Below, one piece after another: positions 11,355-61,487 of a stretch of 64,000 bases of DNA. Position 1 is the first letter of the stretch; each line of letters begins with the position of its first letter. The position numbers and the translations under genes are program-made. The DNA lies in the IMG/VR virus record IMGVR_UViG_3300023245_000013; one strand, 5' to 3'. This DNA comes from a virus. The notes under the pieces are model-generated. The model made no database searches. It was not told the DNA's origin and saw only the letters and a list, made by a program, of their open reading frames with translations.

Positions 11355-11630
11355 TCAGTCTTGAAACTTTCTCAACTGAGCCACAAAAGCTTTTTCAACT
11401 TCTTTATCAACGCTTTCTGGAACAAACCCCTTGACAACGCCTGTCTTCTTTTTCCAATCATCGCCATCAATTTCAGACTCGTCTGTATAATAATCTAAAA
11501 TACTGTTGATAAGGCAAGCCATTTCAAGCATGCTTACTTCTCCCGATTCTTCTATTTGAAATTCCGTAGTCTGCGGAGTTTGTGGCGCATCAGGTGCGCT
11601 ATCTGGTTGTTCTTGCTTCTCGCTCATCAC
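11355..11630 (-). CDS. hypothetical acidic protein
   Basis: 91-aa ORF preceded by TATTTATA on its strand. Confidence 0.55.
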   Translation of the reverse strand: MMSEKQEQPDSAPDAPQTPQTTEFQIEESGEVSMLEMACLINSILDYYTDESEIDGDDWKKKTGVVKGFVPESVDKEVEKAFVAQLRKFQD

Positions 11631-11756
11631 TTTTCTTTTCTATAAATATGAATCTATAACGATAATATCTAAAGACTCATAAATTATTCCACCGCTGTAA
11701 TCTTTTAACCCTAATAGTCAGATAGTTATAAGAAAAGTATATTTTTTTTGCAATTA

Positions 11757-11790
11757 TGCTTGTGGTTTCCAAAAACATAATTATATTTGC
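11757..11790 (+). promoter_or_regulatory. Bacteroidota primary-sigma-type promoter
   Basis: TATATTTG (-7 box TAnnTTTG) with upstream TTG; precedes the ncRNA/Ro60 locus. Confidence 0.65.
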
Positions 11791-11894
11791 AGAGCGATTG
11801 AACGAGAGACGAGTTTCTAAAATTTGTCCCTATTTAATTTCACTGGTAGGAACAACGGTTCCGATTGCCATATTGAAATACAACTTAAGGTAAG

Positions 11895-11951
11895 AATGGT
11901 AAAGAGAGTTACTTCATTTCCACATTTAACAATTTTTTTCCAAAATATACC
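11895..11951 (+). ncRNA. GAGUUACUUC motif RNA copy 1 (degenerate)
   Basis: AGAGAGTTACTTC at 11903-11915, weak closing stem, ends ATATACC. Confidence 0.4.
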
Positions 11952-11968
11952 AAGAGTTTACGACTTTC

Positions 11969-12232
11969 AGAGTGTTGAGAGGTGTGAACGTTTTTGACGT
12001 TTCCTAGGGGTTACTTCAACTATAAACAAACAAGCAAACAGGCTTTTTTGGAATAGTCGAAAGACCGTTTCGAAAAGACCATAAACAGAAACCCAGACAC
12101 CAAGGATAGACTTGGATTTTCAGCCATTAATGAGCTGGTGACGGATTGGAACAGTACAATCACGATTACGGTAGACCGTATGACCGAAAGAGAAAGAACT
12201 TTCAACCTTATCACCCCCCTCTATTTTACCTC
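11969..12232 (+). ncRNA. GAGUUACUUC motif RNA copy 2 (long variable loop)
   Basis: AGTGTTGA-GAGG...GGGG-TTACTTC-(~195 nt)-CA-CCCCCCTC-TATTTTACC; GAGG/GGGG pair with CCCCCCTC. Confidence 0.65.
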
Positions 12233-12250
12233 GAACAGTTATTTGCCTTA

Positions 12251-12314
12251 CGGTGTTAAGGAGATGAGTTACTTCAACTACAAATAGAAAAACCACTCTC
12301 TCCAGGATTACCCG
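12251..12314 (+). ncRNA. GAGUUACUUC motif RNA copy 3 (candidate Y-like RNA)
   Basis: GGTGTTAA-GGAGATGAG-TTACTTC-loop-CA-CTCTCTCC-AGGATTACC directly upstream of the Ro60 gene. Confidence 0.7.
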
Positions 12315-12335
12315 ACCAAGGCATTATATTTTTCG

Positions 12336-12373
12336 AAAAAGCACCCTCTGCAAAGATGTGGTGCTTTTTTTTT
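12336..12373 (+). terminator. intrinsic terminator between the motif RNAs and Ro60
   Basis: AAAAAGCACC...GGTGCTTTTTTTTT. Confidence 0.6.
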
Positions 12374-12427
12374 ATGCGCCAAAAACAAAGAATTAATAGA
12401 ATAACAACAATTATAAACAACGACGAG

Positions 12428-13948
12428 ATGTCAAAATTTAACGAAAAATCAAAGGTAGAAATGACTACCAACAAAGCGGGAGGAGAGGCTTATAAGTCGA
12501 CTCCAGAGTTAGAGCTTGTGACGATTCTGTTGAACTCGTTTGTGTCTGATGACTTCTATTCGAAGGCAGGAGACCAAATAAAGGAGTTGACATCCGTTCT
12601 TAGCAAAGTGGACCCAGAGTTCGCAGCAAAGGCGGCTGTCTATGCCCGTAACGAGTTTGGAATGCGTTCTATCACCCACGTACTTGCGGGTGAAATCGCT
12701 AAGCACGCCTCAGGTAAGGCCTGGGCTAAAGAGTTTTACGCAGCTATTGTACGTCGTCCAGACGACATGACTGAGATTATGTCCTACTACTTCGGTAGAG
12801 AGGGTAAGAAAGCATCTTTGCCAAACGCGCTAAAGAAAGGTTTCAAGAAAGCTTTCGGAAAGTTCGATGCATACCAGCTTGCCAAGTACAGAGGAGACAA
12901 GAATGAAGTATCGCTTGTTGACGTTGTAAACTTGGTTCGTCCAAAAGGAACGGCTAGAAACGAGAAGGCACTTGCCGAGCTTGTTGCTGGAACCCTAAAG
13001 AGTGAAAACACTTTCGAGTCTAAGCTGTCCGCAGCTGGCCAGGGAGCGAAGACCTCTGAGGAGAAAGCCGCAAACAAAGCTGAGGCTTGGTCTGACTTGG
13101 TTATGTCAGGTAAGATTGGACAGTTTGCTCTTCTAAGAAACCTTAGAAACATCATCCAAGATGCTTCTGACGAGGTTCTTAACAAGGCATGCGAGCTGTT
13201 GACTACAGAGGCAAGAATTAAGAAGTCACTGATTCTTCCATTCAGATACATCACTGCACTCGACGAGATTACAGTGTTGACTGGAACAAAGTCTAAGAAA
13301 GTTCAAAGAGCGCTTAACACCGCCGTAGACCTAGCTTGTTCTAACATTCCAAAGTTTGATGGAAACACTGCAGTCGTAATTGACCTGTCAGGTTCTATGG
13401 ATTGCCCAATTGCTGGAGGTAAAACTTACAGGAATAAAGTGGCAGCTCTATTTGGAGCCATGATGGCCAAGGCTAGTGATGCTGATGTAATGTCGTTTGG
13501 AACACACGCAATGTACCTTCCAGTTAACGTGAATGACTCAGTAATGGGTATGGCAAACTGGATTGTTGATACAAACCAAGGCTACGGCAACGTTGGCAAG
13601 TACAGGGTTGGTCACGGAACGAACTTCCAAGACATCTTCGTTAAGATGAAGGCGAAATACGACCGTGTATTCATCTTCTCGGACATGCAAGCGTGGATGG
13701 AGTACAATACTCCAAAAACTCAGTTTGCAGCGTACAAGAAGAAGTACGGTGCTCAGGACTGTAAAGTTTACGAGTTCAACTTGGCTGCAAGCGGAAGCAT
13801 GCAGTTCCCAGAGAAGAACGTATTCGCGCTAAGAGGATTCTCTGAAAAGATTTTTGATGTCATTGACAATCTAGAAGTCGACAAAAGAGCGCTTATCAAC
13901 ACTATCAACAATTATGTTGATTTTGCTGAGCTTGCAACTAAGGAATAA
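12428..13948 (+). CDS. rsr: Ro60/Rsr TROVE-vWA RNA-binding protein
   Basis: NKAGGEAY, ARNEFGMRSI, YQLAKY, FALLRNLRNI, ILPFRYITA, vWA DLSGSM, GTNF and IFSDMQ; ATG 12428 preferred. Confidence 0.92.
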   Translation: MSKFNEKSKVEMTTNKAGGEAYKSTPELELVTILLNSFVSDDFYSKAGDQIKELTSVLSKVDPEFAAKAAVYARNEFGMRSITHVLAGEIAKHASGKAWAKEFYAAIVRRPDDMTEIMSYYFGREGKKASLPNALKKGFKKAFGKFDAYQLAKYRGDKNEVSLVDVVNLVRPKGTARNEKALAELVAGTLKSENTFESKLSAAGQGAKTSEEKAANKAEAWSDLVMSGKIGQFALLRNLRNIIQDASDEVLNKACELLTTEARIKKSLILPFRYITALDEITVLTGTKSKKVQRALNTAVDLACSNIPKFDGNTAVVIDLSGSMDCPIAGGKTYRNKVAALFGAMMAKASDADVMSFGTHAMYLPVNVNDSVMGMANWIVDTNQGYGNVGKYRVGHGTNFQDIFVKMKAKYDRVFIFSDMQAWMEYNTPKTQFAAYKKKYGAQDCKVYEFNLAASGSMQFPEKNVFALRGFSEKIFDVIDNLEVDKRALINTINNYVDFAELATKE

Positions 13949-14052
13949 GGGATAATAGTACTTGTGGCAAACGTGTATCCCCGAAAAACACATCGGTTCA
14001 CCTACGGGTGGATGCCAATCACTTAGGTCACACAAGGATTAAAAGCTTTTAG

Positions 14053-14086
14053 AAAACCCTGTCGATTAATTTTGGCAGGGTTTTCT
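14053..14086 (+). terminator. intrinsic terminator
   Basis: AAAACCCTGTC...GGCAGGGTTTT. Confidence 0.6.
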
Positions 14087-14119
14087 TTACTTTTACATCG
14101 ATGTAGAGTATTCTTCTTT

Positions 14120-20559: not shown

Positions 20560-21249
20560 ATGCGAAACCCCACAAAGAAGTTTGAAAACGATAATATATC
20601 ATTTTATAGATACAGCTGGGGAAAACCAGTTGCTTTTCACTTAACTTACGAGTGCCACGGGTATTCTGATGATGAGAGACCCCAAATCCATATAGCATTC
20701 CTATTCTGGAGCCTGTTTTGGAGTATGCCCTGGTCACACAAGAGAAAGGATTACGGCGACTCAGAACAGTACGGCTGTTATTGGTATCAGGATGGTTGGC
20801 AGAGTCAGAGCTTTGTTATTCGTTACGGAAAGAAATCTAAATACATTAATATGCCCTGGAATCTCGACCACGTTCGCCACAGCATTAAACTGAAGGATGG
20901 AACATGGGTTCATTCAATAAAAGGCGACAAACAAGACTTTTATAAAGACGAATGGAAAGAGAAAATGTGGAGAACTAATATGCCGTATGTTGATAAGCAC
21001 ACTCCAAATGGAGAACTGAACGTGGTTAATGCCGATATATCCATCTCGGAGAGAGAATGGAGAATGAGATGGTTCAAACGAACAACTATGTTCAGCCAAG
21101 TGAGTCGTACAATTGACGTTGAATTCTCTTCAGAAGTAGGAAAGAGAAGAGGAAGCTGGAAAGGTGGAACCACTGGTTGTGGTGAAAGATTTGATAAACA
21201 CGAAACATGGAAGGACGGATTTGAGAGACTAACACAGAGAGTTTTTTAA
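20560..21249 (+). CDS. hypothetical protein
   Basis: 229-aa Trp-rich ORF. Confidence 0.6.
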   Translation: MRNPTKKFENDNISFYRYSWGKPVAFHLTYECHGYSDDERPQIHIAFLFWSLFWSMPWSHKRKDYGDSEQYGCYWYQDGWQSQSFVIRYGKKSKYINMPWNLDHVRHSIKLKDGTWVHSIKGDKQDFYKDEWKEKMWRTNMPYVDKHTPNGELNVVNADISISEREWRMRWFKRTTMFSQVSRTIDVEFSSEVGKRRGSWKGGTTGCGERFDKHETWKDGFERLTQRVF

Positions 21250-61104: not shown

Positions 61105-61178
61105 GGTGGCGCATCATATTGGCGCATGTTGCCTCCCTGTCACGGAGGAGATTGAGGATTCGAATTCCTTCGTCACCG
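61105..61178 (+). tRNA. tRNA-Asp(GUC) copy 1
   Basis: CCTCC-CTGTCAC-GGAGG. Confidence 0.8.
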
Positions 61179-61208: not shown

Positions 61209-61330
61209 ATGGGGAGGAATAATTAATACTTTTTCGCTTTTTACCTGGCAACAGTGTTGATAGAAAGAGTTACTTCGAAAATTAGTATCATAAACTATAA
61301 TTGCAGATTAAGACCTGCCCTCCCCACCAT
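61209..61330 (+). ncRNA. GAGUUACUUC motif RNA copy 4, circularly permuted
   Basis: 3' half (CTTTTTC..TTACCTG), GCAA loop, 5' half (CAGTGTTGATAGAAAGAGTTACTTC), enclosed by GGGGAGG/CCTCCCC. Confidence 0.65.
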
Positions 61331-61341
61331 ATTTAAAAATT

Positions 61342-61409
61342 TTCAGTGTTGAAAGAAGAGTTACTTCGTTATAGGAACATAAAATCACTCTTCTTAGAAT
61401 TACCTGAAA
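61342..61409 (+). ncRNA. GAGUUACUUC motif RNA copy 5
   Basis: TTCAGTGTTGA-AAGAAGAG-TTACTTC-loop-CA-CTCTTCTT-AGAATTACCTGAA. Confidence 0.75.
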
Positions 61410-61413
61410 AAAT

Positions 61414-61487
61414 GGTGGCGCATCATATTGGCGCATGTTGCCTCCCTGTCACGGAGGAGATTGAGGATTCGAATTCCTTCGCTACCG
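61414..61487 (+). tRNA. tRNA-Asp(GUC) copy 2
   Basis: Near-identical to 61105-61178. Confidence 0.8.

What the first reader, a model, noticed from the sequence alone, without database searches (positions are those of the whole stretch)
11895..13948. Ro60 preceded by three copies of a structured GUGUUGA/GAGUUACUUC/UUACC RNA and a terminator
Seen: the consensus is GUGUUGA-stem-UUACUUC-variable-CA-stem'-NNNNUUACC, with compensatory stems (GGAGAUGAG/CUCUCUCC; GAGG..GGGG/CCCCCCUC; AAGAAGAG/CUCUUCUU) and a variable loop of ~18 to ~195 nt. Established: bacterial Ro60 genes lie next to Y RNAs. These copies lack an obvious tRNA-like T loop, so they differ from tRNA-mimic YrlA. A terminator separates them from rsr, which raises the possibility of Ro60-dependent autoregulation (inference).
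Basis: partly seen in the sequence, partly recalled or inferred. Interest (0 to 1): 0.78.

Follow-up and report, generated by a model that had tools for sequence, protein, structure and literature searches.

The report
Phage Ro60 gene with Y-RNA array
A giant uncultured phage carries the RNA-binding ring protein Ro60 behind a set of small partner RNAs ("Y RNAs") of an uncatalogued type; none has the usual tRNA look-alike part, and one carries a new 195-base folded domain in its place.

Summary
Window 12428-13948 encodes a Ro60 protein (TROVE + Ro60 vWA domains). Upstream on the same strand lie three units with an exact GUUACUUC, followed by an intrinsic terminator.

- Unit A (11970-12232) and unit B (12244-12323) are well-supported structured RNAs.
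- Unit C (11882-11958) is weak.

These RNAs belong to a large family with a two-helix "handle". It lies upstream of this Ro60 branch, on the same strand, in 72 of 80 related phage loci and in at least 31 of 80 bacterial loci. Helix covariation is strong. In relatives the same handle carries a YrlA-like tRNA mimic. They are therefore very probably Ro60-bound Y RNAs.

No Rfam family matches any unit here, and none has a tRNA-like head. Unit A instead carries a clade-specific 195-nt multi-hairpin head.

Ro60-dependent autoregulation has no support. The terminator recurs in 55 of 89 loci, and I saw no competing alternative structure.

This is a new variant of a known kind. The scan has noted this locus on near-identical DNA and this handle family in other phages.

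The parts
11831..11862 (+). Candidate promoter box (TAATTTCA at 11835-11842) and a conserved small hairpin GGAAC-AACG-GUUCC (11849-11862), just upstream of the RNA array. Tentative.
   Evidence: Read from the sequences. The hairpin is kept with changed pairs in relatives (GAAAAC/GUUUUC in L007 and L010, AGAAC/GUUCU in L012). The promoter reading is inference only; the sigma-70 scan found nothing here.
11882..11958 (+). Unit C: a weak or degenerate Y-like unit with exact GUUACUUC (11908-11915).
   Evidence: Model R1 scores 18.4 bits, E 0.074 over the whole window. It is conserved only in the two closest relatives, with one compensatory pair. Column-shuffle z is -1.3, not significant.
11970..12232 (+). 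Unit A: a long Y-like RNA. The handle is GAG-U-GUUGA-GAGG[hairpin]GGGG-UUACUUC ... CA-CCCC-CCUC-UAUUUUAC-CUC. It encloses a 195-nt multi-hairpin head with the invariant core GACGGAUUGGAAMAGUACARUCA.
   Evidence: An alignment of 6 relatives gives 45 consensus pairs, 16 with compensatory changes. Column-shuffle z is -20, 0 of 200 shuffles as good. No Rfam match. The head was not found in 80 more distant loci by nhmmer, nor elsewhere in the window. R1 does not span this unit.
12244..12323 (+). Unit B: a short Y-like RNA. It has a basal stem UGCCU/AGGCA, an outer stem, the UGUUAA/AGGAUUAC internal loop, the inner stem GGAGAUGAG/CUCUCUCC, then UUACUUC and an A-rich loop ending in CA.
   Evidence: R1 scores 29.2 bits, E 2.5e-4 over the whole window, with a model built without the window clade. 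Six relatives give 13 pairs, 6 compensatory. Column-shuffle z is -17.
12336..12373 (+). Intrinsic terminator between the RNA array and the Ro60 gene.
   Evidence: 10-nt perfectly complementary arms with a 14-nt loop (pair I8), then T9. Terminators with different stem sequences sit at the same place in all 9 window-clade relatives with enough upstream flank and in 55 of 89 loci overall.
12428..13948 (+). rsr, the phage Ro60 gene (506 aa; TROVE ring plus Ro60-type vWA domain).
   Evidence: Pfam TROVE 1.3e-25 and vWA_Ro60 4.7e-08. There are 3722 homologues at E<=1e-20. The closest solved structure is Thermus phage phiLo Ro60 (9KOP/9L5Y, E 1.8e-22), then X. laevis Ro60 1YVP.
61248..61304 (+). Unit D: a degenerate Y-like unit with GUGUUGA and GUUACUUCGAA but a truncated inner stem, in the tRNA array.
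   Evidence: Only a partial R1 hit at 61264-61298, 11.3 bits, E 3.3. Sequence read.
61340..61410 (+). Unit E: the best Y-like unit of the window (CAG-UGUUGA-AAGAAGAG-UUACUUCG...CA-CUCUUCUU-AGAAUUAC-CUG). It lies 49 kb from the Ro60 gene, between two copies of a tRNA-Asp-like gene.
   Evidence: R1 scores 47.2 bits, E 1.8e-8; the same hit appears in the whole-contig search. Sequence read.

Best explanation
Units A, B and E, and less surely C and D, are phage-encoded Y RNAs, the non-coding partners of the Ro60 protein encoded at 12428-13948.

Shown:
- Each RNA is closed by a conserved 'handle'. This is an outer helix, an asymmetric internal loop (5' UGUUGA/UGUUAA, 3' AnnAUUAC), and an inner helix ending in G-C and U-A pairs. 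A strictly conserved single-stranded UACUUC follows.
- The part above the handle varies. It is an A-rich loop of about 19 nt in B and E, and a 195-nt multi-hairpin domain in A.

Inferred:
- The handle is the Ro60-docking module, and the variable head is the effector-binding module. The head would tether Ro60 to another factor, or gate its RNA channel, as described for Yrn1/YrlA and for phiLo Yrl1/2.
- C, A and B are transcribed as one unit that ends at the terminator 12336-12373.
- Ro60 is made either from read-through or from an unrecognised promoter in the 54-nt AT-rich spacer.
- Units D and E are made and processed with the tRNA array.
For: 1. Exact GTTACTTC occurs 153 times on the Ro60 strand in the 116 kb upstream of 80 related phage Ro60 genes (72 of 80 loci). 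It occurs once on the opposite strand there and 10 times in the other 233 kb.
2. Model R1 was built only from distant loci. It finds E (47.2 bits), B (29.2) and C (18.4) in the window. It finds 120 hits in 79 loci, all on the Ro60 strand.
3. Covariation on those hits: 480 cells with changes on both sides, against 217+-13 in shuffles. The covariation score is 0.52 against 0.19, and against at most 0.36 for slid partners.
4. In relatives the same handle encloses a T-arm/D-arm domain that hits Rfam YrlA at 31-45 bits, E 1e-6 to 2e-3.
5. The handle also lies upstream of Ro60 in 31 of 80 bacterial genome loci, all 42 hits on the Ro60 strand. These include cultured Hymenobacter glacieicola. It is also present in the published 635-kb phage LR745206.1 at 66 bits.
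6. A scan that started from the RNA pattern found 83 viral places. Of these, 39 have Ro60 in the flank, and 32 have it downstream on the same strand (median 413 nt).
7. Units A and B are structured: z -20 and -17, with 16 of 45 and 6 of 13 compensatory pairs.
8. Published work shows that bacterial and phage Y RNAs are encoded next to Ro60 and are modular (PMC4201824, 10.1101/312249, PMC12135203).
Against: - No binding data exist for this handle.
- None of the experimentally validated Y RNAs was shown here to share the handle. The phiLo locus gives no R1 hit.
- The GNCGAA/CGAA motif used to define bacterial Y RNAs is absent from A, B and C, which read UUCAAC or UUCAUU.
- Rfam YrlA and metazoan Y_RNA give no hit in the window.
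- Units D and E are 49 kb from rsr. In the pattern-first scan, 25 true units had no Ro60 in the fetched flank, so linkage is not obligatory.
- Unit A is not recognised by the model.
- Unit C is statistically weak.
- The contig is only about 64% complete, so a tRNA-like Y RNA elsewhere in the genome cannot be excluded.
Confidence: 0.8

Rival explanations
1. The units are a cis-acting leader. Ro60 binds its own upstream Y-like elements and controls read-through of the terminator 12336-12373.
For: The terminator sits only 54 nt before the start codon, and I recognised no promoter in the spacer. A terminator at this place recurs in 55 of 89 loci.
Against: By eye and in the repeat scan I saw no pairing between unit B and the terminator arms; the terminator is a self-contained hairpin. 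No dedicated fold of that stretch was run. 34 of 89 loci have no such terminator. The same RNAs occur as free-standing genes in tRNA arrays (unit E) and downstream of Ro60 in some loci, which fits trans-acting RNAs. Terminators after RNA genes are the default.
Confidence: 0.07
2. The handle RNAs work mainly with a partner other than Ro60, for example a tRNA-processing or tRNA-binding factor. Their position next to rsr would then be secondary.
For: Units D and E sit in a tRNA array between tRNA-like genes. True tRNA genes are interleaved with units in relatives L136, L198 and L212. 25 units were found without Ro60 in the fetched flank, and 2 of 5 such records showed no Ro60 at all.
Against: Those two records are 15-18% complete fragments, and the other three do encode a Ro60. 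The strand-specific enrichment next to Ro60 holds in phages and in bacteria of several phyla. The handle sits where the Ro60-binding stem of YrlA sits.
Confidence: 0.08
3. The repeats are not functional RNAs. They would be chance repeats, remnants of mobile DNA, or parts of small protein genes (gene callers placed an 81-aa ORF over the region in L004).
For: A gene was called over units A/B in L004/L005. Mechanical ORFs overlap the region on the minus strand: 12020-12214 and 12274-12474.
Against: Helices are kept by compensatory changes while the primary sequence diverges. Alignment A4 shows gaps of varied length concentrated at hairpins (gap lengths were not tallied). The motif is strand-specific across 160 loci.
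Confidence: 0.02

Closest known systems
YrlA / YrlB Y RNAs of bacterial and mycobacteriophage Rsr (Ro60) loci (Chen et al. 2014, PMC4201824; Rfam RF02553; YrlA structure, 10.1101/312249)
   Same: They are encoded within 0.6 kb of Ro60 on the same strand, with several per locus. They are closed by a stem formed from the 5' and 3' ends with an internal loop, and they have a modular build of docking stem plus variable head. In related phages the same handle carries a YrlA-like T/D-arm domain. Short units B and E resemble the 'long hairpin with small loop' type (YrlB, Yrn2).
   Different: There is no tRNA-like domain in any unit of this window, although Chen et al. found at least one per species. 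There is no Rfam hit, and relatives reach only 31-45 bits against the gathering score of 69. The signature is UACUUC plus a UGUUGA/UAGUGA loop, not GNCGAAN0-1G; CGAA is absent from A, B and C. One unit has a 195-nt non-tRNA head, so the whole RNA is about 263 nt, against 80-130 nt for characterised Y RNAs.
Thermus phage phiLo Ro60 with Yrl1 and Yrl2 (PMC12135203; PDB 9KOP, 9L5Y)
   Same: A phage-encoded Ro60, the closest solved relative of this protein (E 1.8e-22), with Y-like RNAs just upstream of the gene. Binding was shown by gel shift, and a ternary complex forms with host PNPase. This phage, like phiLo, has no PNPase of its own in the sequence held.
   Different: The proteins are only about 24% identical. 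The phiLo upstream region has no match to the handle model, and its RNAs were picked by the CGAA motif.
Deinococcus radiodurans Rsr-Yrn1-PNPase complex (RYPER), as described in PMC4201824 and 10.1101/312249
   Same: It is the functional model used here: the docking stem holds Ro60, and the head contacts an effector (the KH/S1 domains of PNPase).
   Different: No sequence relation was shown. The effector for the heads of this phage is unknown.

Membership tests
Ro60 / TROVE protein family | TROVE (HEAT-repeat ring) domain followed by a Ro60-type vWA domain, both above the Pfam cut-offs | tested here: met
   TROVE 91 bits (cut-off 23) and vWA_Ro60 33.6 bits (cut-off 27.7). PDB relatives are phiLo Ro60 and X. 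laevis Ro60.
Y RNA (functional class: Ro60-bound ncRNA) | Encoded close to the Ro60 gene (within about 2 kb) | tested here: met
   Units C, A and B lie 105-546 nt upstream on the same strand. Units D and E do not; they are 49 kb away.
Y RNA (functional class: Ro60-bound ncRNA) | Long stem formed by the 5' and 3' ends, interrupted by an internal loop or bulge, supported by covariation | tested here: met
   Family level. Unit A. Unit B. Shuffle controls. Unit C is not significant.
Y RNA (functional class: Ro60-bound ncRNA) | GNCGAAN0-1G / CGAA motif near the 5' side (Chen 2014; used for phiLo) | tested here: not met
   A and B read UUCAAC, and C reads UUCAUU. Only D has CUUCGAA. In seed alignment A2 the base after UUACUUC is G at the 70% conservation level. 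UACUUC is invariant in the 45-unit seed.
Y RNA (functional class: Ro60-bound ncRNA) | Physical association with Ro60 | not testable with these tools
   Only genomic linkage is available.
YrlA (Rfam RF02553) | Score at or above the gathering threshold of 69 bits | tested here: not met
   No hit in the window at gathering, nor at E<=10 in 11600-12450. Relatives with tRNA-like heads reach 31-45 bits.
YrlA (Rfam RF02553) | tRNA-like effector domain with T arm and D arm | tested here: not met
   No T-loop, no ARAGORN call and no Rfam tRNA hit in 11600-12450. Unit A carries other hairpins.
Metazoan Y RNA (Rfam RF00019) | Match to the covariance model | tested here: not met
   No hit at E<=10 in the window region, nor in a relative's three units.
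   E scores 47.2 bits (E 1.8e-8) and B 29.2 bits (E 2.5e-4). C is borderline at 18.4 bits (E 0.074), D is partial, and A is not spanned.
   All five units have G-UUACUUC. A, B, D and E have UGUUGA/UGUUAA, where relatives have UAGUGA. The U-A closing pair covaries: GAUACUUC goes with CUC.
Intrinsic (Rho-independent) terminator | G+C-containing hairpin directly followed by a U run | tested here: met
   Arms of 10 nt, 100% complementary, then T9; folding energy -9.4 kcal/mol in my scan. The consensus scanner missed it because its loop is 14 nt.

The most novel reading that the evidence does not exclude
The handle is a general display platform. In this phage clade the tRNA mimic has been swapped for a 195-nt structured domain of a kind not yet described (unit A head, invariant core GACGGAUUGGAAMAGUACARUCA). 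That domain would recruit a different partner to Ro60, or act as a decoy for it. Phage Ro60 particles would then be retargeted by exchanging RNA heads. A second, unrelated long head of 200-240 nt in about 25 other jumbo-phage loci would be another example.
Probability: 0.4. Interest if true: 0.65.

Novelty: new variant of a known kind. Interest (0 to 1): 0.5.

Why it matters
Ro60 with Y RNAs is a conserved RNA-surveillance particle and a human autoantigen. Its bacterial and phage versions are known mainly through tRNA-mimic YrlA RNAs.

This locus belongs to a large, uncatalogued Y-RNA family in huge phages and in Bacteroidota, Verrucomicrobiota and other bacteria. The docking module carries a different signature (UACUUC with a UAGUGA/UGUUGA loop), and Rfam misses every member tested here.

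The phage studied here shows that the tRNA mimic is dispensable. All its units are either minimal or carry a different large folded head. That gives a direct handle on the question of what the heads do.

A cultured carrier (Hymenobacter glacieicola) and simple in vitro binding assays make the inference testable.

Tried and rejected
1. Metagenome scan with GGATTGGAANAGTACA, the core of the unit A head. The stricter 19-base core found nothing in viral contigs.
2. blastn of the locus against GenBank phages: no match.
3. Rfam on the window: only noise. Rfam Y_RNA (metazoan) also gave nothing on a relative's units. From memory, human Y RNAs contain GGUAGUGAGUUAUCUC-like strings that resemble the UAGUGA...GUUACUUC boxes. 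That remains an untested recollection and is not supported by the Rfam model.
4. Model R1 with filters off does not span unit A, so A rests on the six-sequence alignment.
5. nhmmer with the unit A head against 80 distant loci, and blastn against the rest of the window: nothing. The head is clade-specific.
6. phiLo: a TTACTTCG upstream of its Ro60 lies inside a small ORF fragment, and there is no handle. I treat it as chance.
7. RtcB and PNPase (RNase PH domain) were not found in the 141-kb contig. The contig is about 64% complete, so this is weak evidence.
8. Single-sequence folding of B and C is not better than shuffles (z -0.7 and -0.3). Support comes from comparison, not from energy.
9. I looked for a promoter between the terminator and rsr. 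None was recognised (and reading), which does not show that none exists.
Full report
**What is there**

The window is part of a 141-kb IMG/VR virus record estimated at 64% complete. It carries many tRNA genes.

The ORF 12356-13948 encodes a Ro60 protein: Pfam TROVE at 91 bits and the Ro60-type vWA domain at 33.6 bits. The likely start is ATG 12428. From there the protein begins MSKFN like the family consensus, and the earlier ATG lies inside a terminator.

The closest solved relatives are Thermus phage phiLo Ro60 (9KOP/9L5Y, E 1.8e-22) and Xenopus Ro60 (1YVP). The nearest sequences are metagenomic at up to 92% identity. The nearest GenBank phage is the unannotated 635-kb uncultured phage LR745206.1 at 50%.

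**Checking the observation**

Exact GTTACTTC occurs at 11908, 12010 and 12268 on the + strand.

- Unit B (12244-12323) has the quoted stem GGAGAUGAG/CUCUCUCC, a 5' UGUUAA box, a 3' AUUACC box and a loop of about 19 nt.
- Unit A (11970-12232) has GAGG..GGGG/CCCC-CCUC, a UGUUGA box, a UUUUACC box and a head of about 195 nt.
- The terminator is real: 10-nt perfect arms at 12336-12345 and 12360-12369, followed by T9.
It belongs to unit E at 61340-61410, in a tRNA array 49 kb away.
- The third unit that does precede Ro60, unit C (11882-11958), has the exact motif but only a loose version of the handle.

**Comparative evidence**

I fetched close relatives of the Ro60 (64-92% identity), 80 viral loci at 43-52% identity and 80 bacterial genome loci.

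In the 80 viral loci, exact GTTACTTC occurs 153 times on the Ro60 strand within 1.5 kb upstream (72 of 80 loci). It occurs once on the other strand there and 10 times in the remaining 233 kb.

I aligned 45 short units from these distant loci, leaving out the window clade. RNAalifold found the inner helix with 6 of 7 pairs compensated. One of these is the pair between the first U of GUUACUUC and the A of the 3' CAC; GAUACUUC goes with CUC. The single-stranded signature is therefore UACUUC.

A covariance model, R1, with both helices found 120 hits in 79 loci, all on the Ro60 strand and nearly all upstream. On the resulting alignment:

- 77% of cells pair, against 56% in shuffles.
- 480 cells have changes on both sides, against 217+-13 in shuffles.
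- The covariation score is 0.52, against 0.19 for shuffles and at most 0.36 for slid partners.

That alignment is fitted to the structure, which inflates the numbers somewhat. The unfitted MAFFT alignment already showed the inner helix.

**The window's units against that model**

| Unit | R1 score | E-value |
|---|---|---|
| E | 47.2 bits | 1.8e-8 |
| B | 29.2 bits | 2.5e-4 |
| C | 18.4 bits | 0.074 |
| D (61248-61304) | partial, 11 bits | 3.3 |
| A | not spanned | - |

No further units exist in the rest of the contig.

Unit A is not spanned because a hairpin is inserted in its inner helix and its head is 195 nt long. Its case rests on the alignment of six relatives:

- 45 consensus pairs, 16 with compensatory changes.
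- Handle helices kept, including a G-C/U-A swap at the first pair of the upper inner helix.
- Column-shuffle z of -20.

Unit B has 13 pairs, 6 of them compensated, and z -17. Its extra basal stem UGCCU/AGGCA becomes ACCU/AGGU in L007. Unit C is conserved only in the two closest relatives and is not better than shuffles (z -1.3).

**Why these are Y RNAs**

In more distant relatives the same handle encloses a canonical T-arm/D-arm domain. That domain hits Rfam YrlA at 31-45 bits, E 1e-6 to 2e-3, below the gathering score of 69. The handle therefore sits where the Ro60-binding stem of YrlA sits.

Published work describes Y RNAs as a Ro60-docking stem plus an effector-binding head, encoded next to Ro60 in bacteria and phages (PMC4201824; 10.1101/312249). 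It also shows direct binding for phage phiLo (PMC12135203).

The handle also occurs upstream of Ro60 in at least 31 of 80 bacterial loci. These are mostly Saprospiraceae and other Bacteroidota, with Verrucomicrobiota and others, and include cultured Hymenobacter glacieicola. All 42 hits are on the Ro60 strand. LR745206.1 carries a unit at 66 bits.

A scan that began from the RNA pattern found 83 viral places:

- 39 had Ro60 in the fetched flank, 32 of them downstream on the same strand, at a median of 413 nt.
- Of the other 44, 25 hold model-significant units and about 19 look like chance matches.
- Three of five such records encode a more divergent Ro60 elsewhere. The other two are 15-18% fragments.

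Linkage is therefore strong but not obligatory, as units D and E in this window also show.

**What is unusual here**

No unit in the window has a tRNA-like head. ARAGORN and Rfam tRNA/YrlA find nothing in 11600-12450, even at E<=10. Chen et al. found at least one tRNA-like Y RNA in each species.

The CGAA motif used to recognise bacterial and phiLo Y RNAs is absent from A, B and C, while UACUUC is invariant in the 45-unit seed alignment.

The head of unit A is a set of hairpins. Some are variable and compensated. One is invariant: GACGGAUUGGAAMAGUACARUCA. A purine-rich single strand follows. It is conserved in the clade whose Ro60 is at least 69% identical. It was not found in more distant loci, in viral contigs, elsewhere in the window or in Rfam.

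By a crude classification of the 76 distant viral loci in which units were found:

- 30 have a tRNA-like head.
- 25 have a different long head (200-240 nt) without a T loop. Rfam matched nothing in the seven of these that I tested.
- 21 have neither.

Swapping heads on a constant handle therefore looks like a family trait.

**The terminator and autoregulation**

A hairpin plus T run lies within 160 nt of the Ro60 start in 55 of 89 loci, a median of 30 nt before it. The stem sequences differ between loci, and all 9 window-clade relatives with enough upstream flank have one.

That fits an RNA transcription unit that ends before rsr. By eye I saw no alternative pairing that would link a Y unit to the terminator; I did not run a dedicated fold of that stretch. 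I recognised no promoter in the 54-nt spacer, so read-through may well set the Ro60 level. Nothing points to Ro60 controlling it.

**Surroundings**

Upstream on the other strand lie a PrsW-type protease and a small ORF. Further up on the + strand is a ClpB-like AAA+ protein. Downstream is a T5orf172/MUG113-domain protein.

No RtcB or PNPase was found in the contig. An effector such as PNPase would therefore have to come from the host, as proposed for phiLo.

**Novelty**

I found no paper in the searchable library that describes this handle or non-tRNA heads in phage Y RNAs. The jumbo-phage survey mentions only a TROVE protein with a tRNA-like partner.

Earlier notes of this scan record the same locus on near-identical DNA, and the same handle family in other phages and bacteria. 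My own tests agree with them.

**Verdict**

This is a genuine Ro60/Y-RNA locus of an uncatalogued family, a new variant of a known kind. The absence of any tRNA mimic and the presence of a new 195-nt head are its most interesting points.

Noticed in passing
window 61105-61178 and 61404-61477: Two near-identical copies of a tRNA-Asp(GUC)-like gene with an odd D-arm region flank Y-like units D and E. Rfam tRNA scores the first at 35.8 bits, and ARAGORN calls neither. A GGGGAGG/CCCUCCCC pairing (61211-61217 with 61320-61327) also brackets unit D.
   Followed up: partly
window 11831-11862: A conserved box (TAATTTCA, reminiscent of the Bacteroidota -7 element TAnnTTTG) and a small hairpin GGAAC-AACG-GUUCC lie upstream of the RNA array. 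The hairpin is kept with compensatory changes in L007, L010 and L012. Together with the Saprospiraceae relatives of the Ro60, this hints at a Bacteroidota host.
   Followed up: partly
window 13949-14095: The 3' region of the Ro60 gene folds much better than shuffles (-45 kcal/mol, z -4.3). It includes a strong terminator at 14051-14086 and two small hairpins before it.
   Followed up: no
L134, L138, L143, L146, L156, L164, L188 (about 1150-1460 in each): About 25 related jumbo-phage loci carry a second type of long Y-like RNA. It has a GCAAACAUAGCGAUAG...GAUACUUCGA handle around a head of 200-240 nt, with no T loop and no Rfam match. It is unrelated in sequence to the head of unit A.
   Followed up: partly
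L365 1633-1774 (Hymenobacter glacieicola); L327, L340, L355 and others: Handle RNAs sit directly upstream of Ro60 in bacterial genomes, including a cultured isolate and contigs of 140-430 kb. The family is therefore not phage-only, and a culturable test organism exists.
   Followed up: partly
L136 1019-1093, L212 944-1017, L198 671-742: Ordinary tRNA genes are interleaved with Y-like units upstream of Ro60 in relatives. This suggests joint transcription and processing with tRNAs.
   Followed up: no
window 20560-21249: This ORF matches Pfam Acb3 (CBASS inhibitor) at 118 bits.
   Followed up: no
L012 664-720: In the relative whose Ro60 is 64% identical, the upstream region keeps a CAGUGUUGA box but has no GUUACUUC. 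It may be a decayed or divergent unit.
   Followed up: no
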